A DNA stretch of 62,912 nt, the filler included, from Kipferlia bialata (Eukaryota): assembly GCA_003568945.1 (NCBI GenBank). It is 6 parts of 6 records of this genome, joined end to end, with 100 filler letters (N's around TTAATTAATTAA, not from the genome) between each part and the next. Parts side by side here need not be neighbours in the genome. Positions count along the whole stretch, not along the records: positions 13,653 to 27,188 come from BDIP01000933.1; 5 more parts are not named here. One strand, 5' to 3'. Under the pieces are notes generated by a model, which searched no databases, had not been told where the DNA came from, and saw only the letters and a program-made list of their open reading frames with translations. The translations under genes and the position numbers were made by a program. This document shows positions 1,652-62,909 of the stretch, piece after piece (position 1 is the first letter of the stretch; every line of letters begins with the position of its first letter).

Positions 1652-4600
1652 AAATTGTATTATTCTTCTACAAATATTGTCACGACGTGCTATACATGAG
1701 TATATAGTATTACGTAGATGAATTCCTCTTCATAATAGCCTATGCTGACCCCCTAGGCATGCTAGGAGAGCTCACCTGTGTTGGAAGAGACATGGTGAGT
1801 CATTTCTCTCTCTCTCTCTCTGTCTACCTCTCTCTCTGTCTCTCAGTCCTTCCGTCTCCCCCCCATATATATATATATATATAAATATATATATCAAAGA
1901 GTCCTTCCCTTACCCATCAGGAGAAGGCCCGTGGAGAGTGGTACAGGAACAGGTGAGTAATTGTTGTATATGGATTCATATATATCATATATATTAGTAT
2001 ATATGTATATCTATATATATATATATATTAATATATAGATACTCATATATCGATATGTGGAGAGTGATACAGGAACGGGTGGGTACCAGATTCACTAAGG
2101 CTCAGCTGTGTGTATTCTTCATATATATACGTATGCTCTATACACAAGTGGAGAGTGGTACAGGGATATGTTGGTGTCTCTTTTATATGTCTTCATTTGA
2201 TATATATACTCATGTGAATCGACAAGTGGAGAGTAGTTATAGGAACAGGTGTGTATCCACCTCTCTGTTTGAATATACACTACTTTTGACAAGACCCATT
2301 CGATAACGGAATCTCTCTTTGTCTTCACCCTCATACCAGATATGTCAATGAGCTAGGTCTCCTGCCAGACACCATGGACCCCACCACCCTGTACCTCAGA
2401 TCCACAGACATCCAGAGGACAAAGGTTTATAATACTGTTACATTCAGCATATATACATATTATACTAATAATAACGTGAGGTAGTATGACGATATCTTGA
2501 GGTTTAACTATATGTACAACTCTGCCTTTGATCAACAGACATCCAGAGGACAAAGGTAATCTATATACATATATGAGTATTCAATAAGAGAGTATTATAT
2601 ACATACTATATATGTGTAAATATGCGCTGCCTCAGATCCACAGACATCCAGAGGACAAAGGTATTGCAGATATACGCAGTGGTATACAACAATACTGAGA
2701 GAGAGACATAAACTTACACAGAGAACTAGGGTAGTTGGGATGATATCTAGAGGTTCACATATATATACATACTACCCTGCCTTTCATCCACAGACATCCA
2801 GAGGACAAAGGTAAATAGTTCTCTTAGAATCACTATTGAGTACGATATCGTATCTATGTCTTGCTTAAAGGAGTCCTTAAGTGCACTAATATCTAGGAGT
2901 CCCTTATGGCCCAGCTCAATGGCCTCTATCCTGAGTCTGCCAGGCAGCACAGGCTGCACGTGCACACAGGTATAGTATGCTAACTAATGTCTTTGTTATC
3001 GGCTCTAGCGATGAATATAGTGTCTTCTTCCCACCACCTTCCTCGCTCCCCTCTCTCTCTCTCTTCACCCTATACTCATTCTAGGTGACAGTGGCTACGA
3101 TGACATGATCCCCCAGTGGTCCAGATGCCCAAGGTATGACTACTAATATATATGTATATATATTATAATAGGTAAAATACAAATATATATATAGTGAGAT
3201 ATGTATATATATATGTGTGTTATGTACGAGGACATCAGTATGTATAATCCCTCAGTGGTCCAGATGCCCAAGGCATACACATGTATATATGTAAAGATAG
3301 ATAGATATATATATATATATATATATACTCATTCGGTTTGTACCAATGCCTCTCAATATGTATGTCTTTTGTGGGCCGATCTCTCTCATCTTTCTTTCCT
3401 GTCATTCCCTCTCTGGGCCTGTCTTCCTTATCATTAGTATGAATAATATACTGTATACTATGCTTGGTGTATAAATATCAACTCTCATCCTCAGGATGCA
3501 CCAGATGTACCTATAGATACCTACTCCTATGTATATGCATACATGTTCATACCCCTTATCCTGCAGGATGCACCAGATGTACTACGGAGGCATCAACGAG
3601 GAGCCATTCTACCTGGGTATGGATACATAGTTCTATTTTTGCTTTCTAACTTATAACAATATTCAGTAAGAGACTCACTACTATATTCAAGAGTGTATGT
3701 CCCAAGTGCTAGTGAATATATTTCACCACCACTTTCCTTACGAGGGAACTTTCCACAAGTACTCTTTATTCTGCTCTATATTCTGTGGTGTATTCATCAG
3801 CACTGACCCGCCTAGACTACATGGCCACCATCCAGCCCGAGTTGACTTGGTATATATATATATATATATATACATTATATACATTATATACATTACTAAC
3901 CTCATGGACTACGTGGCCACCATCCATCCCAAGTTGACATTGTGAATATAGTCTCTCTCTATGTATATAGTATCTATCCATATACATTACAATACTAACC
4001 TCCCAGACCACATGGCCACCATCCAGCCTGAGCTGGACAGCATCATTATACATATATATATACATATATATATACATATATATATATACATGTATTGTGG
4101 CCATTAGTGTGGTTAGTGGTCATTATACCACTCACCCCAGACTATATGGCCACCATCCAGCCTGAGCTGGACAGCATCAATGCCAAGACAGGGGGGGACA
4201 TGACATGGGTGCCCATATACGATAACCTGGACTGTAGGTATGATGGAGATAACCACATCTACTGTATGTACTGAGTAGTGTGTTCCTACGGTAACCTGGG
4301 TTGTAGGTATGATAGTAGTATCCACACCTACTGAATATACTGAATAGCGCGTTACTCATGCGCAACAACAATTGTCTAGACTCCTATTCTATATTGAATA
4401 TATAGTGTTTCTAGTCCTACTAATCTATAGGAATGCCAGCGCCATGGAGTTCCCTATGTTTAGCAAATGTAAATGCCCTCAATATCTCACATATACTATA
4501 TTACAATTCTAGTGTTTCTCACCTTTAGGAATGCCAGTGCCATGGAGTTCCCTCTATTTAGTATGTAAATACTGTAGCAAGTACTGTTATCAATTCTCCT

Positions 4601-5968
4601 ATTCTGTAATGAGATCCTTCTCATCCTCTCAGGAATGCCAGCGCCATGGAGTTCCCCTTTGGCATCACAGAGCACGAGTACCTCACATCAATAGGTATAT
4701 AGTATACATACATATTAACATATACTTATATCAATATATTAACCATATATAGTGAAGTGTTCCCCTTTGGCATCACAGAGCACGAGTACCTCACGTCAAT
4801 AGGTATAGAATTGTATTTACTATACAGAGAGATAGTATTCATCTATAGTGAGTGTGTCTCAATGGTTATAGACGAAGGCACTCATGTGATGTATTGTTGT
4901 GTCCTCACCCCAGATGCTGCCAACTTTGAGATGTATCATCATATGTGTCAATTTGGTGCCAATGTTATAGTATATACTCTGCATTCAAGCATGTCCTCAC
5001 CCCAGATGCTGCCAACTTTGAAATGTATGCCCAGTTCACAAACCAGACAGAGTACCTGCAGGTGAGGATATCTAGCATAATTACATTTGTTACTCAACCT
5101 ATGTCTCTGCAATAATAGCAACTCTCCATTAGCAGTATCACATAAGTCTCTACGTAAGGTTTACTTGTCAATACCAGCTCTACATTGGCATGTTTGTCCA
5201 GGAGATCTCAGACATGTTGGTTGATGCCGCAGCTGGTAACTTGGAGTACACATTCGCCATGCACAGGTGGGTTTTACATGGTAGAGGATCAATTACGTGT
5301 ATAGCATCAAGTTGAAACAGTAAGAGATCAAATACAAGTGGTTTACACTCAATATTCCTTGATATGAATCAATGTCTGACCCTCAGTGGCCATGACAGCA
5401 CAATATCGCCCCTGATGGGAGTGCTTCAGGTAAAGGGGGCATCAAGTATCTCTGCAATTACCATCAATATACACAGTGTTGTATTCGTATGTGGATGTAC
5501 TCTCTCCGGATGGGGGGGCATCAAGTATCTCTGCTTTTCACCATCAATATACACAGTGTGGTGGGGGCATTGTCTTCTCTCTTTCCCACCATGTTGATAC
5601 CCAATGATGTATTTGTATGTGGGTGTACTCTCTGACTTCTAGGACTGGGACTACACATGGCCCCCCTATGCGAGTGTCATAGCCTTTGAGCTGTACAGTG
5701 ATGACAGGGGGGAGCAGTACATCAAGAGCAGGTGAGACACCCCATTTTCATTCCCCCTCTCTCTCTCTCCATGTCTCGCTCGCTCGCTCATCCCCACTGT
5801 CATTCTCCTTTACTGTTATATCCTCACTATAGGTACCTGGACCGTGATCTGAGACCCCCCTTCTGCAACGGCCTTGTCTACTGTCCTCTGGACATGTTTG
5901 TGGCTGGACTGGCTGAGTTTGCAGTACCAGGGGTCAACTCTTACTTGGAGAGATGCGTGGCGCTCTGA
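885..5968 (+). CDS. Histidine acid phosphatase (branch 2, lysosomal acid phosphatase-like), multi-exon, 5'-truncated
   Basis: Exons give VVTRHGARS (catalytic RHGxR), GELTCVG, LRSTDIQRTKES, GHDSTI (HD motif) and WPPYASVIAFELY, with a final exon ending ...YCPLDMF...ERCVAL* at 5968. Confidence 0.92.
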
Positions 5969-6309: not shown

Positions 6310-7632
6310 TTCATCTCAGATGAATCATCTGACTGTGTCCTGCGACAAAGTACCTCTTGCTCTAGAGTCTAGAGTCTAGACAGGAGTGAACAAGTGGTTG
6401 GTCGGCGTTGCGTACTCAACGCTTCATTCCCAAGAAGCCTCAATTTGACCGCTTCGAAACGTGCTCCGGTCATATTGATGACTATGCACATAGTCTCTAT
6501 ATCTATGTGGATCTATTGTTGATACATCTACCATGGTAATAAGAAATTCCAGGATTTTCCTAATAGGAATAATTCCTATTTGGAATGCCCTCTGATGATA
6601 GGGATCATCCCTAAGGGAAGTAATGAGTCATTACTAATGACAATAGATCACTCGCTCTTCATCTCAGTGCAGGGCCTGCTGCCCTAGCAGTACCCTTGGG
6701 AGCACATCTCCTCAGGACCTGAGGCTCAGGAAGGGGCACTGAGTGGAGACCCCTGCGGACTCCTGGGGGGTGCGAGTCGCACCGTGCGACGTTACATAGT
6801 GATTATCAAAGCTGGTTCATCTATGATGTATCATCTTGCAACGAGCCACCGCGATGTCCTGAGTCATGGCGGTGTGGATGACGACGCGGTAGGGGTAGGC
6901 CAGCGCGCACTTGAACAGGTGATGGTTAGGGTCGTCAAGGAGGTCAGGGTCGGCGTTCCCCTCGAGGAAACGTGGAAGGATATCGTTGTCATGATTGGTG
7001 GGGGTCATGTCGAAGTGGACACCAGTGATCTCAGGGCCATGGGACATATGTATACCCTTGCACACATCGTAGAGACCCCGGTAGTTGTAGAAGCTCTTGG
7101 CGTCGTGGTGCATCTCATCCCTGTCATCGGCGGGGGTAGAGACCCTCTACTAGAGAGGCCCTTGGCCGTACCCAGCCTTGGCTCTGATCTGACCTGCCCG
7201 GTCTGGCTACCCGGAACCGCACCGCGTCACTGGACACCTTGTTGGCCTAGGGGGTGAAGTGGGACGGCTTGTCGAGCTTGTTGTTCTCGGCGACAACGCC
7301 CATGTTAAGGTCGCTGGTCATGGACAGGACTCCTGTCACAGGAAGTAGAGTACAATTCCGAATCCGCATTGCCGATCATCAGGCCCCTCTGCTTGGACAG
7401 TCCAAGTTGGACTCATACTGTCACAATATGATATTGTGCAAGAAGTATCCCTTCTGTAAGTGTGACACTGTCACAGTGTGACACTTACTAATATCAGTAC
7501 CACTACTTTGCTAGAGTATGAGATATGATACATGGAATTCATATCACATGGACAAAATTGAAGTTCAATTTGCTTTGACGGCAATCACGAGTCGCGATCT
7601 CCGTGAGCGAACTCCCACTGAGTGGGCCACTC
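6310..7632. mobile_element. Cluster of hairpin-type (hAT-like) transposon excision footprints
   Basis: 22-bp motifs of the form 8-mer minus last base + reverse-complement 8-mer + 8-mer minus first base. Exact at 6310, 6360, 6620, 6769 and 7392; one mismatch at 6599, 6710 and 7323. Confidence 0.7.
6817..7321 (-). pseudogene. Degenerate intronless ORF of unknown origin (possible mobile-element remnant)
   Basis: Reads MTSDLNMGVVAENNKLDKPSHFTP*ANKVSS...EGLYPR, then an apparent frameshift into ADDRDEMHHDAKSFYNYRG...ARCKMIHHR*. It is GC-rich and coding-like, lacks microsatellites, and is flanked by excision-footprint-like motifs. Confidence 0.4.
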
Positions 7633-7846: not shown

Positions 7847-10130
7847 TTAGTCCATCCACGATGGAGACACCTGTTTGTATCCCATACGGTTGGACCCCCT
7901 TCTGGCACCAGTCTTGGGTACCTGAAGCATTAGATATATATATATATATATTTATATATATGTATAATAATGTAGAGGTAGAGAGTTGGAGACAGAATAG
8001 GAGATCGAGCGAGAGAGAGAGAGAGAGAACACTCACCACCAGGGTTCCAGGCACAGCTGCATATCCCTCATAGGGCAGGGGCTGCCTCCTCTCCCTGCCC
8101 CTCTCTCTCTCTCTCTCCCCTCCATTTGTGCCCATATCTGCTGTATCCACACTGGTGCCAGTTGGGTTGAACTGGTCAAGTCCATAGACATCTCCCTCCC
8201 CCTGTCTCTGCTGCATGGCTAGCATCTGCACCAGCTTGTCAGTCTGGGGGTCAGGGTTCAAGCCCCACCATAGTCACTATTTACCATACTGCAATAGTAT
8301 ATATATATATTCACACAGCATACCTCAGTGTCGTATGTCCTGAACGAGAAGGAAATAGTATATATGCATATATATATATATACATGACATATCATGCATT
8401 TGGTCAATACCTCAGTGTCGTATGTCCTGAGCGAGAAGAGCACGTCAAGTACATATATATATATATATATACAAAATCGTAATTCACTATATTTGTATAA
8501 TACTTGTTATATGTATATGTATATACTTGTAATTATACCTCAGTGTCGTATGTCCTGAGCGAGAAGGGCACGTGGCCAAAGGCAGGGAAGTATGCCTTCT
8601 CCCTCTCCCTCTTGCCACTACTGCCGGGGGTGGGGTGCTGGGGCTGACGGTGAGTGGATACATAGTAGACAATACATATGTACTTTCGTACATACACACC
8701 TGCTCATTGACAGTGGGTGTGACAGTCTCTATATCATAATGAACATATACTATTCTACATCATATACACATATGTGTATATACATAATGCATACCTGCTC
8801 ATTGACTGTGGGTGTGACAGTATCAGAAACATAATGAACATACATNNNNNNNNNNNNNNNNNNNNNNNNNNNNNNNNNNNNNNNNNNNNNNNNNNNNNNN
8901 NNNNNNNNNNNNNNNNNNNNNNNNNNNNNNNNNNNNNNNACACCTGCTCATTGACAGTGGGTGTGACAGTCTCTGAAACATAATGAACATACATGTATGT
9001 ATCTCCATCATATACATATATAAAATGCATACCCGCTCATTGACTGTGGGTGTGACAGTCTCCACTGCCCCCTTTCTCCCTCTCCCTCTCTCTCTCTCTC
9101 TCTGTCCCTCTGGGGTAGCCTCGTCCACATACTCTGGGTGGAAGCGTATGGGAGAGGGAGAGGCAGCAGCCACTGGGGCGGGGGAATACGTGGGAACCTA
9201 TGAGTTAGAATACAATCATCTATACGCTAATCTATGGTATTGATTGATTTATATATATATATATAGATGCGTCTTATGCAGTACCTGGGAGTCCTGGTCC
9301 AGTCTGTTCCTGTCAATCACGACACTACCACGGAGCTGTCGCCTAGGGGTGAGAGGCAGAGGTATATGAGAAGTAGTATCAGTGCCAGTAATGACCGCCC
9401 CCTCCCCATGAAGCCCGTAGACAGTGAAACTGTACTGGCTAACTACTGCACACCACTGGTATTCAACTAACCTCCGTATCTCCCTGCCGTGTCTGCTGGG
9501 TGTACCCACAGATGCTCTCCTACCCTTGCCTCTCTCTACCCCTCTCTCTCTCCCCCTGTCCCTACTGCCTCTCAAGGGTGGCAGGGAGGGGGACTCAAGG
9601 TCCATGCCTAAGGGTCAGTATATAGCATATATCACTACGAATATTGTATATAACTAAAGAGAGAGAGAGATTGAGAGAGGGAGAGAGAGAGAGACTCAAG
9701 GTCCATGCCTAAGGGTTAGCATTAAGAGAGAGAGGCAACAAGACGATGATGTATGTATAGAGCATGACAATTTTATGATACTGACATACCCAGGACTGCC
9801 ACGCTGACCCCCTGCTCTGCTGGCCTGAGGTCCCTATGGTATATAAATTCGTATTCATTATATATATACACACACATATCTGTATATATATATAGTGAGT
9901 ATATATATATATATTTACCTAGCACTGCCACGCTGACCCCCTGCTCTGCTGGTCTGAGGTCCATATGATATATATATATATATTTATATATATGTGTGGG
10001 TGTGAATATTCAATGAATAGTGTATATATATACCTAGCACTGCCACGCTGACCCCCTGCTCTGCTGGTCTGAGGTCCCTGTGTCCTCCCACACTACGGCG
10101 CCTGTTACCAGTGTTCCTGGGGTGAGGAAG

Positions 10131-13552: not shown

Positions 13553-13652
13553 NNNNNNNNNNNNNNNNNNNNNNNNNNNNNNNNNNNNNNNNNNNNTTAA
13601 TTAATTAANNNNNNNNNNNNNNNNNNNNNNNNNNNNNNNNNNNNNNNNNNNN
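13553..13652. other. Artificial contig linker
   Basis: N44-TTAATTAATTAA-N44 (stops in all six frames). Confidence 0.97.
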
Positions 13653-16612: not shown

Positions 16613-18747
16613 TATCAGTATACTCTGGTACCTATATGCATATTCTTACCCTCAGAAGAGTGGGCCAAGTGCTCTGCCCACTGCCACCGGGCACTGGAGC
16701 TAGAGCCCACACTAGTCCATGCCAGACTGGCACTGGCCAGGGTGGCTAGTGTTAGAACACAGGTATAGTACATAGATATACACATACTATAATGGATAAA
16801 TATGTAAACATATATATACACTGGCTAATACCAGTCCGACTAGTATTGGAACCGAGGTATGATTGCCACTTCATTCTCTCTGGCTCTCTCTCTCTACCTC
16901 ACCCAACAAGAGCATGCTATGTCCTTACATCTCTTCATATACTTGTAGTGACTTAGAGGTATAACCTATCATTACTCTTACATCATCACGAGCATGCCGC
17001 GTGCATCTGACGCATCTCTCTCTCTCTATGTCTCTCTCCCTATATTTGTATATATACCTCACCCCAGCACGAGCATGCCATTGTCCACCTGAGACGTCTC
17101 TCTCTCTCTATGTCTCTCTCCCTATATTTGTATATATACCTTACATCAGCACGAGCATGCCATTGTGCATCTGAGGCATGCCCTGGCTATATCACAGGGC
17201 AGCATAGAGATATGCATTGCAGCTTGTAAGGTACATAGAAGTGTGTGCAGTTGACCCTAAGTGTACATATATACCTCTTACCCTCAGGAGTACCTGTCCC
17301 TTGACAACAAGGCTGCAGATGCACTCGAGATGGCACTCATGGCGAGGTTAGTCTCTCTCCATCCATCCCTTCTTTTTCCTATTTCTCTCTTACATATCAT
17401 ATATGTATACGTATATGATTATACATTTGTATCTCACCCCCAGGGACATCTCCCCCCACACCCCTGTGGTCTGGGGCCTCACCCTCTGTGCAGCATACTA
17501 CAGGAACAGGTGTGTGTGCATTTTCTTATACGTCTACTCAATATGTGTCCCAAGGATGTACGACGATGCCATCAGCAAGTACTGCTTATAGATACTCTCA
17601 TGTTCACATGGTATTGTAGTTATCAGTGTGACATATGCTTAGATATATCTCACCCCTAGGATGTACGACGATGCCATCAGGGCAGCAGACTATGTCACCA
17701 ATGCCAACTTCTTTTTACATACAATACTATATGTAATAGAGATATGCCTCTATCTCACTGTGTAGGATGTACGATGATGCCATCAGTGCAGCAGATGCAT
17801 GCATACAGAGGGTGACAGGGGGGGAGACAATACCAGGTACTATAGTATAAATACACACACGTATAAATTATATATACATAGTGGCTTCGATGGGAGTCGA
17901 ACCCACACCCTCTCACTCCCAGGCCGTGACACGTCTGTGCTGTGTGAGGCCTATGCCGCCAAGGGCCACTGTCTGATGCACATGCACAAGTACCAGAGTG
18001 CAGAGGGGTGTTATGAGCAGGTACACTACTCACACGCATCCTAATGCCATATTCTTAGATGGTATATGTGACAATGTATACCTTACCGCAGGCCCTGTCC
18101 CTGGGATGTGGCAGGGAGGCCCAGGTTGGACTGGGCATGGTGTACCACAGGATGGGGAGGTGTGTATACATGTATGGTATATATACTTTTGTATAGTGAG
18201 GGATGCGTGAAGTACTGACCCCAGATACTCCGAGGCCTGCCAGGTGTACAATGCTGCCCTGTCTGAGAAGGGCAGCCCAGACCTGGTGGCACTGCTACAG
18301 GTATTATATACTATGCATACATTATGTATATATAGTATATGATATGATGCCCTGTCTGAGAAGGGCAGCCCTGACCTCGTGGCATTGCTGCAGGTATAGT
18401 ATACTATGCATATATTATGTATATATAGTTATATAGTATATGGTATGATGCCCTGTCTGAGAAGGGCAGCCCAGACCTGGTGGCGCTATTGCAGGTATCC
18501 AGACATTATGTATATATATAGTATATCTTATAGTATATGATATGCTGCCCTGTCTGAGAAGGGCAGTCCAGACCTCGTGGCACTGTTACAGGTATGTATA
18601 TGTGTCTTGTAATACATATGTTGAAGGTGTCTCTTTATAGTAGTTTGGCAGTATATAATGTATTAATATGAATTAATATGAATAATTGACCCTTAGGATG
18701 CTCTGGTCAGGTCCCTCCGCACCCAGACCAAGTCAATACCCACTTAA
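13667..18747 (+). CDS. CDC16: Anaphase-promoting complex subunit 6 (CDC16)-like TPR protein, 5'-truncated
   Basis: The spliced product has ASLCVLRGRLQLLRKNPERAVYWYGRALRHEPGCVSA and CVPIVAAAMVERKRKSELYLCASRLRRLAPDHGCTWLATGLYYLL. These match Cdc16 segments I recall (SSICLLRGK..., CLPVHIGTLVELNKANELFYLSHKLVDLYPSNPVSWFAVGCYYL). Further TPRs follow, with a stop at 18747. Confidence 0.78.
17879..17923 (-). pseudogene. tRNA 3'-half (Pro-like), antisense to and coincident with an intron acceptor
   Basis: The minus strand reads CC-TGG-GA-GTGAG-AGGGT-GTGGG-TTCGACT-CCCAT-CGAAGCC-A-CTA, which is the canonical spacing of tRNA positions 32-73. No 5' half is present. Confidence 0.65.
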
Positions 18748-19870: not shown

Positions 19871-24484
<4,614 letters not shown>

Positions 24485-27188: not shown

Positions 27189-27288
27189 NNNNNNNNNNNN
27201 NNNNNNNNNNNNNNNNNNNNNNNNNNNNNNNNTTAATTAATTAANNNNNNNNNNNNNNNNNNNNNNNNNNNNNNNNNNNNNNNNNNNN
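27189..27288. other. Artificial contig linker
   Basis: N44-TTAATTAATTAA-N44. Confidence 0.97.
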
Positions 27289-27905: not shown

Positions 27906-28838
27906 TCATGGTTCTAGGTACTCAGTCTCACCCCAACACGTGATGAGACCTAGTGTTAGTTGCAAAGTCTCTCACATCCAATACACAACCAGTACGGTGA
28001 GAAAAAAAAAAAAAAAAAAAAGGAAACTGCTCGTGTACTTATATATATATACATACATATACACTGTGCTATACCTGTCTCATCCACCACCGATGACACA
28101 TCTACCATCACATACGTATATAGTAGAGCATACATCATAGACAATAGTATAGTATCTATATACAGTTGTATATAAGGTACCTGTCTCATCCACCACCGAT
28201 GACACATCTGCCCCACCTACATACATGCATATATACCATAGTATTTATAGAATCTTTATATACGATACTATACTATGGTACCATACCTGTCTCATCGACC
28301 ACCGATGACACATCTGCCACATACATACATATATACCATAGCATATACATCATAGACAATAGTATAGTATCTATATACAGTTGTATATATAGTACCTGTC
28401 TCATCCACCACCGATGACACATCTGCCCACATACATATATACCATAGTATTTATAGAATCCTTATATACAATACTATACAATACAGTACCATACCTGTCT
28501 CATCCACCACCGATGACACATCTGCCCACATACATACATATGTACCTTAGTATTTATAGAATCTATATTTACCATACTATTAGTACAATATACCACACCT
28601 GTCTCATCCACCACCGATGACACGTCTGCCCCAGCTGCTATCATGACAACACGGCCCAGGCCTAGGGTTAGAGTACGTATATACAGACATATTCATAATT
28701 ACACATAAATGTATAGAGAGAGAGAGAATAACAGTTGTCCCAGCTGCTATCATGACAACACGGCCCAGACCTAGGGTTAGAGTATGTACAGAGAAGCATA
28801 TACAGACACACATATATAGATAAAAATATATCTGTGTG

Positions 28839-38181: not shown

Positions 38182-40138
38182 AGGGCGACATGAAGAGTTG
38201 ACCCGTAGTATAGGAGAAGAGCCAGGACTGAATACACATACTGATACACATACTGATACACATACTGATACACATACTGATGCACATACTGATACACATA
38301 CTGATACACATACTGATACACATACTGATACACATACNNNNNNNNNNNNNNNNNNNNNNNNNNNNNNNNNNNNNNNNNNNNNNNNNNNNNNNNNNNNNNN
38401 NNNNNNNNNNNNNNNNNNNNNNNNNNNNNNNNNNNNNNNNNNNNNNNNNNNNNNNNNNNNNNNNNNNNNNNNNNNNNNNNNNNNNNNNNNNNNNNNNNNN
38501 NNNNNNNNNNNNNNNNNNNNNNNNNNNNNNNNNNNNNNNNNNNNNNNNNNNNNNNNNNNNNNNNNNNNNNNNNNNNNNNNNNNNNNNNNNNNNNNNNNNN
38601 NNNNNNNNNNNNNNNNNNNNNNNNNNNNNNNNNNNNNNNNNNNNNNNNNNNNNNNNNNNNNNNNNNNNNNNNNNNNNNNNNNNNNNNNNNNNNNNNNNNN
38701 NNNNNNNNNNNNNNNNNNNNNNNNNNNNNNNNNNNNNNNNNNNNNNNNNNNNNNNNNNNNNNNNNNNNNNNNNNNNNNNNNNNNNNNNNNNNNNNNNNNN
38801 NNNNNNNNNNNNNNNNNNNNNNNNNNNNNNNNNNNNNNNNNNNNNNNNNNNNNNNNNNNNNNNNNNNNNNNNNNNNNNNNNNNNNNNNNNNNNNNNNNNN
38901 NNNNNNNNNNNNNNNNNNNNNNNNNNNNNNNNNNNNNNNNNNNNNNNNNNNNNNNNNNNNNNNNNNNNNNNNNNNNNNNNNNNNNNNNNNNNNNNNNNNN
39001 NNNNNNNNNNNNNNNNNNNNNNNNNNNNNNNNNNNNNNNNNNNNNNNNNNNNNNNNNNNNNNNNNNNNNNNNNNNNNNNNNNNNNNNNNNNNNNNNNNNN
39101 NNNNNNNNNNNNNNNNNNNNNNNNNNNNNNNNNNNNNNNNNNNNNNNNNNNNNNNNNNNNNNNNNNNNNNNNNNNNNNNNNNNNNNNNNNNNNNNNNNNN
39201 NNNNNNNNNNNNNNNNNNNNNNNNNNNNNNNNNNNNNNNNNNNNNNNNNNNNNNNNNNNNNNNNNNNNNNNNNNNNNNNNNNNNNNNNNNNNNNNNNNNN
39301 NNNNNNNNNNNNNNNNNNNNNNNNNNNNNCTGATACACATACTGAATATACATACTGAATATACATACTGATACACATACTGATGCCATGGGTGGGGCCC
39401 CAGTCACATGAATGGGTATCCACATATACACGGCCCCACCTTGCTGCAACCCCTGCAACCCCTGCAACCCCTGCCACCCTCTGGGCCACACTGGCAGGCA
39501 CGAGGAGGGCCAGCGAGGAGGGCTTCTGCCTGTCCAGACAGAGACTGGACTCGTGCAGAGAGGAGAGACCCAGGGACAGGAAGGCACTGAGGTCAGGCTC
39601 AGCACAAGTGTTTAGGCATTGGGGGGTGAACAGTTGGAGAGAGAGGATAAGAGAGGAGGGCGCAGTATCACTATCAGTATCTGTAGATGGGGAACATATA
39701 TATATATGATACACTCATGAGTCATGACACTGACACGAGCTTGTATCAATTACGATATCGACCGCACAATATAAATATATATATTGTACATAAGGGCACC
39801 CACAGTGAACCTGACAATATCATTCACGGAAAAGAGAGGATGAAATGATCAAGCAACCATGATTGGAGGAAGATACACAGCATAACCATCACAGGACACC
39901 CGTAATATACAGCCCAACACCCTCCCACTCACACACCAGGCACCCCAACACCAACGTCTCCTGTGTCTGTGTTTGTGTTTGTGTTTGTGTCTCATGCATA
40001 TAGTACAAGGACTCACCTGCATCGGCAGGCATCCCCCTGACTCTCACACTCCTCGAAGAACGAATTCTCTTCACTGTCTTCACACAGGGAGAGGGTATCA
40101 GAGTACGTCCAAAAGACGTGTATCACGTCCCCCCCCAT
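33528..40138 (-). CDS. Large hypothetical low-complexity protein (may be more than one gene)
   Basis: Long open exons 35921-37711 and 33759-34611 plus small exons with canonical splice signals. The likely start is MGGDVIHVFWTYSD at 40138. It is interrupted by a ~1-kb gap and the 3' end is missing. Confidence 0.6.
38232..39385. repeat. 12-bp tandem repeat (tactgatacaca)n spanning an assembly gap
   Basis: The unit is visible on both sides of the N run 38338-39329. Confidence 0.9.
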
Positions 40139-40811: not shown

Positions 40812-40911
40812 NNNNNNNNNNNNNNNNNNNNNNNNNNNNNNNNNNNNNNNNNNNNTTAATTAATTAANNNNNNNNNNNNNNNNNNNNNNNNNNNNNNNNN
40901 NNNNNNNNNNN
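40812..40911. other. Artificial contig linker
   Basis: N44-TTAATTAATTAA-N44. Confidence 0.97.
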
Positions 40912-41029: not shown

Positions 41030-44000
41030 CTTGTCTCCTGTGTCTGTGCACTGATGCCAAGGGCAGGATACTCATCCAGATTGGGGGGTAGCTGAGGGTC
41101 AAACGCAAAGATCTACATGTATATACAGGTGTATACACACACAATACTAAACATATACAATCACATACCTGGGTGAGTGACCCGTTCTCCGGCAGCCCAT
41201 TCAGAAGACACACGTCCCTGGCCATCTCTCTCTCTCTCTCCCTCTCCAGTGCTGTACTGCTGACAGTGACCTCCTAAGCATTAGTGTCATATATATACAG
41301 TTAGGTATACATATTTAGTGATAACTAATAATAATATCATATAGGTAATCAGTATCCTATAGAATGAAGAGGTACGAGTATCAGTGTCATATACAATGGT
41401 AATGACAGTATCAGATAACGACGCTGACACTGACCTTACTATACCCTATATACATACCTATATACATTCGTTCTGATACTGACCTCCGTTTCATCTATAC
41501 GGTACTAATACCCTAGATACATAGCATATATACAATGATATAGTATAAATACACTATGATACTGATACCGAGTCTCACCGCAGGATCTACGACACTGACA
41601 ATGACACATACAGTAGTCTCCCATATATATACCCTATATACATACCTTGGTGTCCATGCCAGACATCGTGTCAGTGTCATATACTACCCTATAGCACATA
41701 CTATGCCACTGTTACCGTGGTGTCCTATATACATACCTTGGTGTCCATGCCAGACATCTGGGCCACTTTGAGGGTGTGGTCAAGCATACAGGGGCCTAGT
41801 AGAGCCTAATGTAAGAAGGATATATACTAATTACAAATGTACATGGCCTAACATGAGAGAGAGAGAGGTATATAAGTAGGGTGTGGTCAAGCATACAGGG
41901 GCCCAAGAGGGCCTAGTATTAGTAAATATCTGGGGGCTCATCAAGGGTATATATGTGTACTATATGACTCATATAGTACATGAGTCCTCATATAGTCTAT
42001 GAGGAAATATGTGTATATATGTGTACTATATGAGGAAATATGTGTATATATAGCTGTGCCACCCGGGATGTTGTCTAGCATACATACATGTATATAGATA
42101 TATATGTATATGTGCCCTCCCAAAATGACTATTAACTCATAATTGTGTGTTATAGAATCTACACCTGCACATATAGAGAATATATAATTCATATATACAT
42201 ATATCTAGGGCTGCATACAGATAGTGAAGTCGATGGTGTCCACAAACACCTCAATCAAGCACTTTGTGTAGAAAATGTACTTATGAAAGAATAACACAAT
42301 TACATATATACTATATTGTTTAGAGTATATACCTGGTAGTCGATGGTATCCACAAACACCTCTGCCAAACACTCAGTATACAGCTTATAGACGCGAAGTA
42401 TTTACATATACACTATAATGTTTAGAGTATATACCTGGTAGTCGATGGTAGTAGATGGGCAAGAAGTGGATGGCGACTAAATCATATAACATATATATAT
42501 ATACTACATATACTTGTGCACCTGGTAGTCGATGGTATCCACTGAGCCCTCTATCCTGAACTCGTTGAGGAGAGAGGTCAGGGGGGCAGTGTCATTGGAG
42601 GGGCCTAGAGTCAGTTAGAACCAATATATATATATATATACACGTATATGTATATAAATAGAGGGAGAGAGAGAGANNNNNNNNNNNNNTATATACACGT
42701 ATATGTATATAAATAGAGGGAGAGAGAGAGAGAGAGGTCAGGGGGGCAGTGTCATTGGAGGGGCCTAGAGTTAGTTTGAATCAATATATATATACATATA
42801 TAGAGAGGGGGAGAGAGATAGAGAGAGAGAGAGAATAGAGGTCAGGGGAGCAGTGTCGTTGGAGGGGCCTAGGATGAGAGACTAATACGGAGACGGAGAG
42901 AGAGAGAGATAGAGAGATAGAGAGAGAGGGGGAGAGAGAGAATAGAGGTCAGGGGGGCAGTGTCATTGGAGGGGCCTATAGGATGAGAGACTTATACGGA
43001 GACGGAGAGAGAGAGATAGAGAGAGAGAGAGAGAATAGAGGTCAGGGGAGCAGTGTCATTGGAGGGGCCTGGGGTTAGATTGTTAATAAATATATAAACC
43101 TGGTCGTGGATGTTGTCCTCAGGTTGTCGTATGGGTGTTGAGCATAAATGAAGAGTTACATCCTGATATATGAATAGAAATATATATATACACTAGGTTG
43201 CTAGTAGTAACTTACTATACCTGGCGTTGAGACTGTCAGCACCCTCAGGCTGCAATGTCTGAATACTCATACCTATACATACACCTATATACATAAACTA
43301 CCATTGAATAGTTACAACTGGAATATTACCTGGTGTTGACACTGTCAGCACCCTCAGGTTGCAGTGTCTGAATGCGGCATGCTTGTTGAGGAGGTAGGGC
43401 AGGAGGAGGCAGAGACCACCATCGTCAACCATCCAGACCTAGTGTAAGATTAAGAGTGCAATAGTACTCCACACATTGAAGTATGTACATTGTTATATAG
43501 AGCCAGAGACCACCGTCGTCAACCATCCAGACCTAGGGTGAGATTATATATATATATATATATATACATAGCAGTATAGTATAGATTGTATATATAAATA
43601 TATATATTATTCAACTAAGAATTTATATACATAAAGGCACATGCCGTCGGCGTCAACCATATAGGCCTTAAATATATATACATATATATATACATATATA
43701 TATAGCAGTATAGTATAGTATATGATTGAATAGTGAATTATCCACTTGAATGAGCTCACCATAACCATAAACAATATAGTTAACGGTAGGTATAATAGTG
43801 TAACACTCACCAGATCTATCCTGGAAGGGGGTTTCTTGCCCGCAGAGTGCTTGAAGGCCTAAGGGTGAGATACTAAATACACGCATAGTATTATACAATA
43901 CCATAGCCTCATCTCTCGCTGCCGTTGGGTATCTCAGGGGCATGGACCCAGACATTGTATATATATATGTGTGTATAGAAATACATATTACAATTGTAGT

Positions 44001-47000
44001 CCCACCTTAGCTTCCTCCCTGGCTGCCTGTGCCGTTGGGTATCTGAGTGGCATGGACCCAGACTCGGCCAGGCTGCGCTGGAGGAGACGGCGGCACCTGA
44101 GTAAGTATATGTATAAGTAACACTATCATATGTATACATACATCAGTATTGTGTATCCACAGAAATAGGCTGCACTGGAGGAGACGGCGGCACCTGAAGA
44201 ATAGATAATCACACCAACATTATCACTCTCGCTATATGAGATAATACCTGTTGTTGCAGATGGTGGCTGCTAGCACTGGCTCTGCGGACAGGCATATATG
44301 AGTGTGTTCAACATCTCTCTCTCACTCTATATATACAAATATATACTCTCCATACACTCATTCAGTACCTGTTGTTGCAGATGGTGGCTGCCAGCACCGG
44401 CTCTGTAGATATGATGGGGATGGATGGGGGTCTAGACAGGGGGGGGAACTCGGTGTGGGCCTGAAATGAGTGTACTATACACACAAAGAGTCATTAGTAT
44501 ATACTATATTGTATAGTATGGAACTCGGTGTGGGCCTAGGTTCAGAATGTATCGCACTATCCCCCATTATATAGTATCATATTCTATATAGTAATACATT
44601 CACACAGAGGGTGGCCTGGACCACATCAGACTCGCCATACATATATGAATATATATGTATATATCTCCTGTCTAATGTATATCTGTATACCTCTGGCGCA
44701 TCAGACTTCTTGAGGAACTCCACATCTGACACGGCATGGATGTATACAGATACTATATATATATTAGTTACTATAATTACTATTACCACTATATATATAT
44801 AAATGGTCATTATACCTCTGACCCATCAGGCTTCTTGACAAACTCCACATCGGACGACACGGCATACTTATAGAATATGTAATATACATGTATATCTATA
44901 ATAGTATGTATACATGTATATGCCTCTGATGCACCAGGCTTCTTGCTCCACATCTGACACGGTATGGGGGTATACAATATCATATCATATACTTGTTTAT
45001 ATGGTAGATATACATAGTCATCTACGTATGTACCTCTGACGCATCAGGCTTCTTGACAAACTCCACGTCTGACACGGCATGTGTTGAGTAGAGGGGGTCG
45101 AGGTTCCTAGCCACAACAAGGCCATAGCCTGTCATCATTAGATTAAGACACATTCGAGTAATATAGTAATCGCGTAAGTTAGGCCATACTCTGCGTCATT
45201 AGAATGAGACACTCCGAGAAAGAGAAATGGAAAGTAATGGATAGACATGCCGAGAAACAGAATGTTATCGCGTAGGTTATAGAAGGGTATAGGTTATGGA
45301 GTGTACCTAGAGACGCGGCGTCTCTAAGGACTCCTACGTACTCCTCTGCTGCGAAGCGTGTTCCCTCGTCTATGTGGTAAATAGCATCCTCCCCATCTCC
45401 CTCTGTCTCTCCCTCTCTCTCTGTAGAGGGGTAGGGGGAGAGACCGAAGTTGGTACGTACTGAGGAGACAGCGCGTCTGGAGTGAAGGGAAGATCATGAA
45501 AGAGAATTCTAAAGGGGAACGGTAGTACATAAAGTAGTATATAGATATTAGAATTTATGTATGTATAATGAGAATACAAATACATATACCTGTACATGGC
45601 GTGTTGATCCTGTGCCATCCCAGAGTCACAGTGCCTCCAGTCACTCTTGAAGCCTAGCATGATCGTGTTAGGGCGCATCACACCTGGAAGTCAAAAGAAG
45701 TCAAAATTAACCAGAAAAAGTCAAATTGGCACATATATAGTGTTGGGGCGCATCACACCAAAGTGTCAGATATATATACATACTTATGTATGTATATATA
45801 TATATACTATGGTTAATATGAACTAGCATAACAGTATTGGGGTGCATCACACCTGGAAGTCAAAGTGAGTGACATATAGATAGCCATATATCAGGGCGTG
45901 GTGTATCCTGTAACCATGAACTCACTTTGAACAACTGCAATTTCTTATTAATACTCTGACATGCAAACTCTATTAAATAAATAATCCTGGAATACCTATC
46001 CCGTTTGATGTCAGCAGTGCCCTAGCTCCCTCTCTCACTAATGTATGAATATGGTATGTTATGTATACACTTTCTCAAGTGTACCTATTCCGTTTGATGT
46101 CAGCAGTGCCCTAGCCCCCTCTCTGAACGATGATGCTATGGTGTTGCTGTAGGTCGCGGTGTTGGTGATAGGAGAGGCAGCCAAGAGGTAGCCGGTGAGG
46201 GCTCTCTCTCTGTGGGTTAGACTCGATGAATAATCATATACAACCTTTACTTACAGAAAGGATAACTATATTTACAGTATATGTATAGAAGTATGTATAA
46301 GTATGTAGGGACTCAATACCTCACGTATCTGGCAGACACTGCCTTGGGCCACTCTCTTGATCTCAGAGGTCCATCCCCAGCATACACGACATCACCCACA
46401 GACAGAAGACCATGGCCCTAGATGTAAGGTGTAATATATATATATATATGTACATTCAGGTATATGGGCATCATGGGTATAACAACTGATATACAGACAG
46501 ACAGGAGACCATGGCCCTGGAGAGAACATAAGAAATACATATCAATATAGATCATTATATATACCTTCTTGCTAATGTGTGTCTCTATACATACTATACA
46601 TATTATACATACTACAAATGCATAAATCTACCTTCTTTGTCATTTGTGCAGCTGGTGCTAGGAGGTCATTACTCTATACCACGAAAGCACATATATGTAT
46701 ATATACATAGTATATAGAGTATACATAGTATATGTCTATATCTACACCTTCTTCGTCATGTGTGCAGCTAGTGCCAACAGGTGTGGACGGTGCATGGGAC
46801 GGCCTGACGGTAACATGTGGATATATATATACATATATATACATATATGAGTATATACATATATATAATACTTGTGTGGACGGTGCATGGGACGGCCTGA
46901 CGTTAATATACGGATATACACATTATGTATACATACATGTGCTGGAAGACAATGAGAGGGGGTGGTGCATGGGACGGCCTGACGGTAACATGTGGATATA

Positions 47001-61997: not shown

Positions 61998-62867
61998 CTA
62001 GTAACAAAGGTCGTAGTCCACTAGGGGTTAGAAAGTGTCGAAAGATAGTATATATAGAGCATAGTGAGAGTATATATATATATATATATGTGTGTGTACA
62101 AAAATATACTAAATATATATACCTATGATCTCATTGAATGCCCCCCACAGGTCATAGTCCACCATGCACAGGGCACCACCGCCTCTCTTACGCTGTGACT
62201 CCATCCTAAGAGTGAGAGGTCCCGGGTTCGAATCCCCGTATAGATATTATATATATATATATATATATAGTCCACCATGCACAGGGCACCACCGCCTCTC
62301 TTACGCTGGGACTCCATCCTAAGAGTGAGAGGTCCCAGGTTCGAATCCACGTATATATATACTCTCTATATACATTGTCAAATATACACAGGGCACAACC
62401 GCCCCTCATACGCTGTGACTCCATCCTAAGGGTAAGCGGTATATATATGTATATATACATATAGAGAGAGAGAGATGAAGATCATACCTGTTAATGTCTC
62501 CTATGCACACAGTAGGGTGGTCCATACCTATACAGGTATATATATATATATGTGTATAGGTGTATATACATATACTTTCATACTATATACCATACTATAT
62601 ATATATATATACTTATACACCTGTTAATGTCTCCTATGCAGACTGTGGGGTGGTCCATGTCCACAGCCCATATATATACCCACACATCATAAAAATGTAT
62701 ACGTATACCCATATGCTACATGCTATATAGAGAACTATACCAATTCACATATATATAGATATATACATCTATACACCTGTTAATGTCTCCTATGCAGACT
62801 GTGGGGTGGTCCATGCCCACTGCCCACTTGGAGTGGTCCTGGGTCTCGCCAAAGGCATAGCCATCAA
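61998..62867 (-). CDS. Hypothetical protein, terminal exons
   Basis: DGYAFGETQDHSKWAVGMDHPTVCIGDINR|MESQRKRGGGALCMVDYDLWGAFNEII with canonical splice signals. The final exon is uncertain. Confidence 0.5.
62205..62351 (+). pseudogene. Two tRNA T-arm fragments antisense to a duplicated acceptor site
   Basis: CC-TAA-GA-GTGAG-AGGTC-CCGGG-TTCGAAT-CCCCG at 62205-62238 and a decayed copy at 62318-62351. Confidence 0.6.
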
Positions 62868-62909
62868 CTGGGGGTGAGGAGGTCTCGGGTTCGATTCCCA
62901 CAGGAGTCA
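62867..62909 (+). pseudogene. tRNA 3'-half-like fragment antisense to an acceptor site
   Basis: AC-TGG-GG-GTGAG-GAGGTC-TCGGG-TTCGATT-CCCAC-AGGAGTC-A. Confidence 0.5.

What the first reader, a model, noticed from the sequence alone, without database searches (positions are those of the whole stretch)
17879..17923. Antisense tRNA 3'-half fused in register to an intron branch point/acceptor (CDC16)
The intron ends gtggcttcgatgggagtcgaacccacaccctctcactcccag|. Its reverse complement is a correctly spaced tRNA 32-73 segment with a TGG anticodon, G37, a paired T-arm and a ..GCC-A end. The branch motif ctcac equals the anticodon-stem 3' strand and the AG falls in the anticodon loop. Inference: either tRNA halves or a tRNA-derived SINE supply splice acceptors, or repair switches template onto tRNA using microhomology between the acceptor consensus and tRNA-Pro.
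Basis: partly seen in the sequence, partly recalled or inferred. Interest (0 to 1): 0.72.

Follow-up and report, generated by a model that had tools for sequence, protein, structure and literature searches.

The report
tRNA fragments captured at intron ends
In this intron-rich eukaryotic genome, five intron ends carry a backwards 15-30-base piece of transfer-RNA-like sequence fused to the splice signal, likely copied in during error-prone DNA repair, which would be an undescribed source of splice signals.

Summary
An RNA-type contig splices 17837-17922, so this acceptor is used. The window has 5 exact B-box motifs against 0.14 expected. All 5 lie antisense, 13-22 nt upstream of a strict acceptor: 17922, 8244, and 62206/62319/62868 in a DNase II gene. 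They represent 3-4 independent events.

The details need correcting. Position 33 is C, the 'TGG anticodon' is the complement of the acceptor consensus, a tRNA-Leu fits as well as tRNA-Pro, and the '..GCC-A end' is probably a fold-back copy. Secure tRNA likeness runs from about position 37-44 to 65. No source tRNA was found (inconclusive).

The setting is a genome full of duplicated exon starts that each carry a different branch site (27 families). The best reading, at 0.45, is microhomology-guided template switching onto a tRNA gene during duplication-with-filler repair. A SINE is disfavoured. Earlier scan notes hold only related cases on other DNA (a SINE beside an acceptor; skipped duplicated acceptors), not this one. 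New variant of a known kind.

The parts
17837..17922 (+). Spliced intron (86 nt, GT..AG) in a TPR-protein gene (CDC16/APC6 by recall only)
   Evidence: RNA-type contig X2 skips it; reading frame continues across the joint; TPR_1 E=4.5e-4, below cut-off, on the next exon
17890..17918 (-). Copy A: tRNA-like segment, positions 37-65 (anticodon-stem 3' strand, variable region, T-arm), antisense to the pre-mRNA
   Evidence: Numbering and 5 of 5 T-stem pairs; 28 of 30 to tRNA-Pro L054; 26 nt exact to tRNA-Leu L132; Rfam tRNA 15.3 bits
17912..17922 (+). Branch pentamer CTCAC (predicted branch A at 17915) and acceptor TCCCAG; pentamer = complement of tRNA 39-43
   Evidence: Strict acceptor consensus; acceptor used; branch point itself not mapped
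17881..17890 (-).
   Evidence: 9 of 10 inverted repeat; best of 57 fetched tRNAs is 8 of 10
8244..8268 (+). Copy B: T-arm only (about 51-65) abutting branch site CTGAC and the acceptor at 8244 of a minus-strand gene
   Evidence: Exact B-box at 8255; strict acceptor; weakest copy (7.9 bits, 14.9); intron 8323-8244 read from sequence, splicing not tested
62206..62238 (+). Copy C: tRNA-like 37-65 (62210-62238) fused to the acceptor at 62206 of the last DNase II exon (gene on minus strand)
   Evidence: B-box 62225; 23 of 23 to tRNA-Ile L068; exon after this AG matches PF03265 positions 294-320, contiguous with 265-292; splicing inferred
62319..62351 (+). Copy C': duplicate of C in front of a partial exon copy
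   Evidence: 2 differences from C in the tRNA-like part plus acceptor, 1 in 52 nt of exon copy
62386..62440 (-). Most upstream copy of the same exon start, with a plain acceptor (CTTACCCTTAG at 62426) and no tRNA sequence
   Evidence: 3 differences in about 40 nt from the coding copy; 8 of 11 match in register to C's -15..-5, which 13 of 53 other acceptors also reach
62868..62901 (+). Copy D: tRNA-like 44-65 (62880-62901) fused to the acceptor at 62868 of the DNase II exon PF03265 265-292
   Evidence: B-box 62888; 18 of 21 identical to C over 44-64; T-stem 3 of 5 paired; upstream context cut by the window end
17510..17765 (+). Neighbouring intron holding two partial copies of the next exon's start, each behind its own acceptor-like end; both skipped
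   Evidence: X2 joint skips 256 nt, GT..AG; sequence

Best explanation
These are short tRNA-like pieces (variable loop plus T-arm) lying antisense against the branch site of spliced introns, likely copied in as templated filler when a repair polymerase switched templates at the acceptor. Shown: the fragments, their orientation and position, use of acceptor 17922, and a window-wide habit of duplicating exon starts with the break 2-8 nt inside the acceptor and a different branch site behind each copy. Inferred: a broken antisense strand ends in the complement of the acceptor and anneals by a few bases to something that looks like an acceptor. Usually that would be another intron end; sometimes it would be a tRNA gene, because the complement of the anticodon arm of some tRNAs (Pro above all) reads like CTCAC-YYY. 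The polymerase would copy about 15-30 nt to the end of the T-stem, fall off, add fold-back or (TA)n filler, and rejoin, sometimes leaving an exon-start duplicate. The event would survive because the copied stem supplies or preserves a branch pentamer at the spacing this spliceosome uses. The T-arm would be a passenger.
For: 5 of 5 B-boxes at acceptors, antisense, none elsewhere. Junctions vary (34-37, 37, 43, 51) but always fall in the branch/acceptor. Likeness ends near position 65 in all copies, followed by an inverted repeat (A), a short palindrome (B, read) or (TA)n (C). In 27 hand-curated acceptor-duplication families (34 extra copies), 30 of 34 share at most 8 nt upstream of the exon start and 28 of 34 have their own branch-like motif (background 320 of 2930 AGs). 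Identity at -15..-3 is 56%, against 93% in the exon part and 38% for unrelated acceptors. In DNase II the upstream, most diverged copy has a plain acceptor and the two downstream copies have the tRNA one. Natural tRNA-Pro genes exist whose complement scores 13.7 on the window's acceptor matrix (real acceptors: median 12.8), and unselected Thr, Leu and Asn tRNAs score 8.6-10.6 (the Pro ones were fetched with a pattern made from these fragments, so this shows existence only). A58 is intact in all copies and no 1-mismatch B-box lies in this arrangement, which suits a DNA or unmodified template. Templated and fold-back insertions at breaks are known in yeast (PMC11724301, passages).
Against: No donor was found. 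No X1 contig other than the source matched copy A at 80% or more (6 laid, the other 5 on TA-rich stretches), and nothing was laid on a eukaryote-type tRNA-Pro (the tool warns this can be false). T-stems of C, C', D and B have 1-2 unpaired positions, so they are decayed, chimeric or not from intact tRNAs. The match of C to the plain acceptor (8 of 11) is no better than consensus level. No non-simple intron end is shared between unrelated acceptors in the window apart from the tRNA type (229 sites compared), so 'switching to other introns' is unshown. Copies A and B have no acceptor duplicate. A's 5-nt CCAGG overlap at the intron ends is matched by a non-tRNA neighbour. The B-box is intact while its flanks differ, which selection could also explain. 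Only 3-4 independent events.
Confidence: 0.45

Rival explanations
1. One or a few old tRNA captures made an acceptor cassette (or a truncated tRNA-derived SINE head) that has since been copied from intron end to intron end.
For: C and D lie in neighbouring introns of one gene and are the closest pair (18 of 21). C was duplicated to C'. A, B and D share AGYCAC at 69-74. Antisense tRNA-derived SINEs (MIR, B2) are known to donate 3' splice sites (PMC2394776, passages).
Against: Other pairs agree at only 13-16 of 21. No A-box, body or poly(A). No sibling of A was laid from X1. A SINE should leave copies away from acceptors; 0 of 5 are. The shared 69-74 letters are explained in A by fold-back and in B by a palindrome.
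Confidence: 0.2
2. Mature tRNA or its 3' half was reverse-transcribed (retroelement RT or Pol theta), stopped near modified G37, and the cDNA end annealed to the branch site.
For: A and C both end at about position 37. Positions 74-76 read CTA, CTA, CAA in A, B, D (6 of 9 letters of CCA, P about 0.004 post hoc). tRNA halves join LINE-1 insertions in antisense (PMC13174262, passages). Pol theta reverse transcription is cited in PMC8516963 (passages).
Against: C75 matches in 0 of 3. The 74-76 letters fall inside a fold-back (A) and a palindrome (B). C stops at 65. A58 is unchanged in 5 of 5 although m1A58 usually blocks or miscodes RT (recalled; partly ascertained, but one search shows no mismatched sibling). 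The LINE-1 chimeras mostly take positions 1-37, the other half.
Confidence: 0.17
3. The B-box is kept by selection: it works as a TFIIIC site, or as a pairing site for tRNA fragments that tunes splicing of these introns.
For: The B-box letters are intact in 5 of 5 while flanks differ, and allowing one mismatch adds only 4 sites against about 6 expected, none in this arrangement. Spacing to the AG is 21-22 nt in 4 of 5.
Against: Intact boxes are how the copies were found. Different tRNA donors explain differing flanks without selection. The box is also intact in C', which precedes a partial exon copy. The sense-strand hairpin of A is unremarkable (z -0.8). TFIIIC binding would not need this orientation (recalled).
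Confidence: 0.12
4. The resemblance is chance or an assembly artefact: acceptor consensus plus local palindromes.
For: Positions 33-43 are acceptor consensus anyway. Rfam scores are below threshold or absent. B is near the null, and the reversed window gives one 17-bit site.
Against: 5 against 0.14 exact B-boxes. Placement probability about 8e-5 for three independent events on loose acceptors (0.043 cubed). 23-30 nt matches to real tRNAs at E 2e-7 and 5e-8. Copy A lies inside one unbroken DNA contig.
Confidence: 0.02

Closest known systems
Templated / fold-back insertions at DNA breaks (alt-EJ, MMBIR; yeast, PMC11724301, passages read)
   Same: Short filler copied from elsewhere or by snap-back, joined through a few bases of microhomology, beside duplicated target sequence.
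   Different: Here the donor is tRNA-like, the junction is always the branch/acceptor, and the product is a working intron end. No donor or enzyme has been shown.
Intron gain by double-strand-break repair with filler (Daphnia) and by tandem genomic duplication (review PMC3443670, passages; Hellsten 2011 PMC3265369, abstract)
   Same: Splice sites reused through duplication; foreign filler between short repeats.
   Different: Existing intron ends are rewritten rather than new introns shown to be gained. The passages read name mitochondrial DNA as filler, not tRNA.
Antisense SINE exonisation (Alu, MIR, B1, B2; PMC2394776, passages)
   Same: A Pol III RNA-derived sequence in antisense supplies a 3' splice signal.
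   Different: There the poly(A) tail becomes the pyrimidine tract and most copies are not at splice sites. Here the anticodon-stem complement is the branch pentamer, there is no tail or A-box, and every copy is at an acceptor.
tRNA-half/LINE-1 chimeras (PMC13174262, passages)
   Same: Half-length tRNA pieces inserted antisense at a break.
   Different: Those are mostly positions 1-37, with a LINE-1 partner and 9-19 bp target-site duplications, and no splicing role. Here it is positions 37-65 with no LINE.
Introners (search listing only; definition recalled)
   Same: Repeated sequence that provides splice signals to many introns.
   Different: No near-identical whole introns; only a 15-30 nt sub-terminal piece recurs.

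Membership tests
Functional tRNA gene | Complete cloverleaf with D-arm / A-box | tested here: not met
   ARAGORN 0 genes; no 5'-half match; Rfam 15.3 bits against 29
Functional tRNA gene | U33 and paired anticodon stem | tested here: not met
   33 = C in A, C, C'; the 27-31 side is coding exon and pairs 3 of 5 in A
Functional tRNA gene | T-arm with B-box | tested here: met
   Exact box in 5 of 5; stem 5/5 (A), 4/5 (C), 3/5 (B, C', D)
tRNA-derived SINE | A-box plus B-box head | tested here: not met
   B-box only
tRNA-derived SINE | Homogeneous copies with shared body and tail, dispersed regardless of splice sites | tested here: not met
   13-18 of 21 identity; 0 of 5 away from acceptors; window only
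tRNA-derived SINE | Target-site duplication | tested here: inconclusive
   5-nt overlap at intron A also seen at a non-tRNA intron; C lies in a 40-55 nt exon-start duplication
tRNA-derived SINE | High genome-wide copy number with a master element | tested here: inconclusive
Retrocopy of mature tRNA / 3' half | Non-genomic CCA end | tested here: inconclusive
   CTA, CTA, CAA; C truncated at 65; overlaps fold-back and palindrome
Retrocopy of mature tRNA / 3' half | RT stop or miscoding at m1A58 / m1G37 | tested here: inconclusive
   A58 intact 5 of 5 (ascertained); 5' limit near 37 in A and C only
Templated insertion (alt-EJ / MMBIR) | Microhomology at the junction | tested here: inconclusive
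   Consensus-level only: 8 of 11, reached by 13 of 53 other acceptors
Templated insertion (alt-EJ / MMBIR) | Adjacent duplication or fold-back filler | tested here: met
   Exon-start duplication at C/C'; 9-of-10 inverted repeat at A
Templated insertion (alt-EJ / MMBIR) | Donor locus in the same genome | tested here: inconclusive
   Searches found none; filter and seed limits
Templated insertion (alt-EJ / MMBIR) | Dependence on Pol theta / Pol delta repair | not testable with these tools
   Needs genetics or the proteome
Introner | Families of near-identical full-length introns at unrelated sites | tested here: not met
   Self-BLAST finds only simple-sequence matches more than 1.5 kb apart; window only
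Introner | Terminal inverted repeats | not tested
   No dedicated search run

The most novel reading that the evidence does not exclude
This genome continually rewrites its intron ends by template switching between acceptor look-alikes. tRNA anticodon arms, tRNA-Pro above all, mimic the branch/acceptor consensus well enough to be captured, so that tens of introns per megabase would owe their branch site to a tRNA. The tRNA piece would be a traceable tag for where new splice signals come from.
Probability: 0.35. Interest if true: 0.82.

Novelty: new variant of a known kind. Interest (0 to 1): 0.62.

Why it matters
Where new intron sequence and branch sites come from is a long-standing open question; most gained introns have no traceable source (PMC3443670, passages). 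Here a recognisable donor sits exactly at the branch site in 5 of 58 strict acceptors, inside a genome whose splice junctions are duplicated and rewritten at high density. One genome-wide scan would give hundreds to thousands of events if the window is typical (3-4 in 61,088 bases; extrapolation). Those events could show whether the template is tRNA gene or tRNA, which strand was primed, and whether ordinary fillers come from other introns.

Tried and rejected
No whole genome is held, so the genome-wide test and the tRNA inventory could not be run. ARAGORN found nothing. Rfam at E up to 5 over the window gave 125 matches, nearly all simple-sequence miRNA look-alikes, and no tRNA or rRNA family; local scans gave no tRNA hit for B, C, C', D. 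Exact fragment patterns found nothing in viral contigs. No RNA holder is on record; X2 is a guess. Laying both runs on a tRNA-Pro from L003 laid nothing, which the tool says can be false; I treat it as no result. Both read-laying runs are used, so splicing at 8244, 62206, 62319 and 62868 is inferred only. CDC16 could not be confirmed from single exons. Rejected: intact tRNA gene; standard LTR primer-binding site (it would cover positions 59-76, recalled; the fragments cover 37-65); a special match between C and its predecessor acceptor; a stable RNA structure (z -0.8 to +0.9); the CCA hint as evidence. Of the 36 acceptor-duplication families I dropped 8 by eye as donor duplicates or wrong-strand reads and merged 2, leaving 27. 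The matrix is circular for A, C and D; one search is the independent version. Literature: ten searches listed no paper describing tRNA fragments fused to branch sites; only listings were seen for most hits, subscription papers are missing, and no supplements were read.

Full report
1. The observation. It ends an 86-nt GT..AG intron, 17837-17922, that the RNA-type contig X2 record 7 splices out; the DNA contig X1 record 1 covers 17450-18250 without a difference. X1 may be the window's source and X2 is RNA only by the tool's guess, but its four skips are all GT..AG and the frame stays open across this joint. The host gene encodes TPR-like repeats (sub-threshold Pfam matches). 'CDC16' is plausible from recalled motifs and was not confirmed. 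Read on the minus strand and numbered from T54, the segment gives GA (37-38), GTGAG (39-43), AGGGT (44-48), a fully paired T-stem and a TTCGACT loop.

2. It recurs. The window (61,088 non-N bases in 6 linked pieces) has 5 exact matches to the recalled B-box GGTTCRANYCC, against 0.14 expected and at most 1 in 100 shuffles. All 5 are antisense to, and 13-22 nt upstream of, one of 58 strict branch/acceptor sites: 17922 (A), 8244 (B), 62206 (C), 62319 (C') and 62868 (D). Such places are 0.76% of strand positions, or 4.3% with 328 loose acceptors. C' is a duplicate of C, and C and D are neighbours in one DNase II gene (PF03265 positions 265-292 and 294-320) with 18 of 21 identity, so there are 3-4 independent events in 3 of the 6 pieces. 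A T-arm matrix from 14 tRNAs not chosen by these fragments puts A, D, C and B first to fourth and C' seventh; the reversed window's best scores are 17.0 and 12.8. Allowing one mismatch adds 4 sites, no more than chance, none in this arrangement.

3. Position 33 is C. TGG is the complement of the acceptor's own CCA. A matches a tRNA-Pro at 28 of 30 but also a tRNA-Leu(CAG) at 26 of 26, and C matches a tRNA-Ile at 23 of 23; these are foreign tRNAs and show only that the isotype is open. In favour of Pro, all 5 ARAGORN-called metagenome hits of 11 to a pattern including 37-43 are Pro, and T follows CTCAC in 3 of 4 tRNA-type acceptors against 2 of 16 others. The supposed acceptor-stem end of A is a 9-of-10 inverted repeat of positions 49-58, more than in any of 57 fetched tRNAs. 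B's counterpart is a small palindrome and C simply stops at 65. The secure tRNA-like part is therefore about 37-44 to 65. There is no 5' half, no ARAGORN call and only 15.3 Rfam bits. No source tRNA or sibling was seen in X1 (6 records laid, 5 on TA-rich stretches; none laid), but the tool filters contigs and its seed is unknown.

4. The setting. Many introns in the window contain partial copies of the next exon's start or the previous exon's end, separated by TA-rich filler. After dropping 8 of 36 script families by eye and merging 2, there are 27 acceptor families with 34 extra copies. The exon part is 93% identical between neighbours and the -15..-3 part 56% (unrelated acceptors 38%); 30 of 34 share at most 8 nt upstream of the exon start, yet 28 of 34 carry their own branch-like motif (background 11%). 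An uncurated script counts 98 donor families. In the one case covered by RNA, two such copies are skipped and the last acceptor is used (17510-17765). In DNase II the most upstream, most diverged copy has a plain acceptor and the two downstream copies have the tRNA one, which suggests the tRNA piece arrived with a recent duplication (order inferred).

5. Mechanism. The best reading (0.45) is templated filler. A broken antisense strand ending in the complement of an acceptor anneals by a few bases to an acceptor look-alike, copies a short stretch, adds fold-back or (TA)n filler and rejoins. Some tRNA anticodon arms are such look-alikes: the complement of natural tRNA-Pro genes scores 13.7 on the window's acceptor matrix against a median of 12.8 for real acceptors, and unselected Thr, Leu and Asn tRNAs reach 8.6-10.6 (circular for Pro). 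This explains the fixed place and strand, the variable junctions, the stop near 65 and the intact A58. Shown: arrangement, enrichment, use of 17922, the duplication habit. Inferred: breaks, switching, the donor, the branch adenosine, selection for splicing. Against it: no donor found, imperfect T-stems in four copies, microhomology only at consensus level (8 of 11, reached by 13 of 53), and no shared non-simple intron ends between unrelated acceptors. Rivals: a cassette or SINE head copied between intron ends (0.2), reverse transcription of mature tRNA (0.17), a selected B-box (0.12), chance (0.02).

6. Organism. It is not established. Fixed branch-to-AG spacing and intron richness recalled the free-living fornicate Kipferlia; this is a lead only. 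Its genome paper reports 124,912 introns and has no occurrence of 'tRNA' in the main text (PMC5874029, passages; supplements not read). Fused branch/3' sites are described for related lineages (PMC6679479, passages). Metamonads lack Ku-dependent NHEJ and some keep alternative end joining (PMC8516963, passages), which would suit the model if the guess is right.

7. Comparison and novelty. It works like a templated insertion at a break (PMC11724301, passages) combined with splice-site reuse by duplication or filler (PMC3443670, passages; PMC3265369, abstract). It resembles antisense SINE exonisation (PMC2394776, passages) and tRNA-half/LINE-1 chimeras (PMC13174262, passages) but fails their defining tests or leaves them open. 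PMC11782384 (passages) did not bear on it. Ten searches listed no report of tRNA pieces fused to branch sites; the library lacks most subscription papers. Earlier scan notes gave two related cases on other DNA and nothing on this genome.

8. Verdict. The feature is real, recurrent and apparently undescribed, but it rests on 3-4 events in one window with no donor in hand. New variant of a known kind; interest 0.62.

Noticed in passing
window-wide, e.g. 42605-43069 (-), 4430-4632 (+), 28070-28630 (-), 18226-18600 (+): Partial exon copies with splice sites are tandemly repeated inside many introns, with unalignable TA-rich filler and a different branch site behind each acceptor copy (27 curated acceptor families; 98 uncurated donor families). 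This may be more general and more surprising than the tRNA pieces.
   Followed up: partly
window 17510-17765 (+): The RNA contig skips a consensus-like acceptor copy (17659) and uses the last, less consensus-like one (17765).
   Followed up: partly
window 6763-6790 (-): Possible sixth, weak case: an AG preceded by a 7-bp fold-back whose opposite strand reads GGGTGCGAG, like a Pro anticodon arm (recalled); 12.7 bits, below the null's best.
   Followed up: no
window 13553-13652, 27189-27288, 40812-40911, 54434-54533, 59658-59757: The window is six pieces joined by N-flanked TTAATTAATTAA linkers, and long G/C runs lie near several piece ends and gaps, probably assembly artefacts.
   Followed up: no
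window about 20220-24480 (+), 43000-54400 (-), 57000-59600 (+): Intron-split genes that by recalled motifs look like a RecQ helicase, a cation-chloride cotransporter, and a DHHC palmitoyltransferase next to a RhoGAP-like gene; not tested.
   Followed up: no
window 38240-39385: A 12-nt tandem repeat runs into both sides of a 992-base gap.
   Followed up: no
L003:66-222, L007:66-227: tRNA-Pro(TGG) followed within 2-10 nt by tRNA-Ser(TGA), a tight tandem pair in two metagenome contigs.
   Followed up: no
L004, L008, L010: tRNA-like 3' halves in GC-rich contigs that ARAGORN does not call; perhaps integration-site remnants (guess).
   Followed up: no
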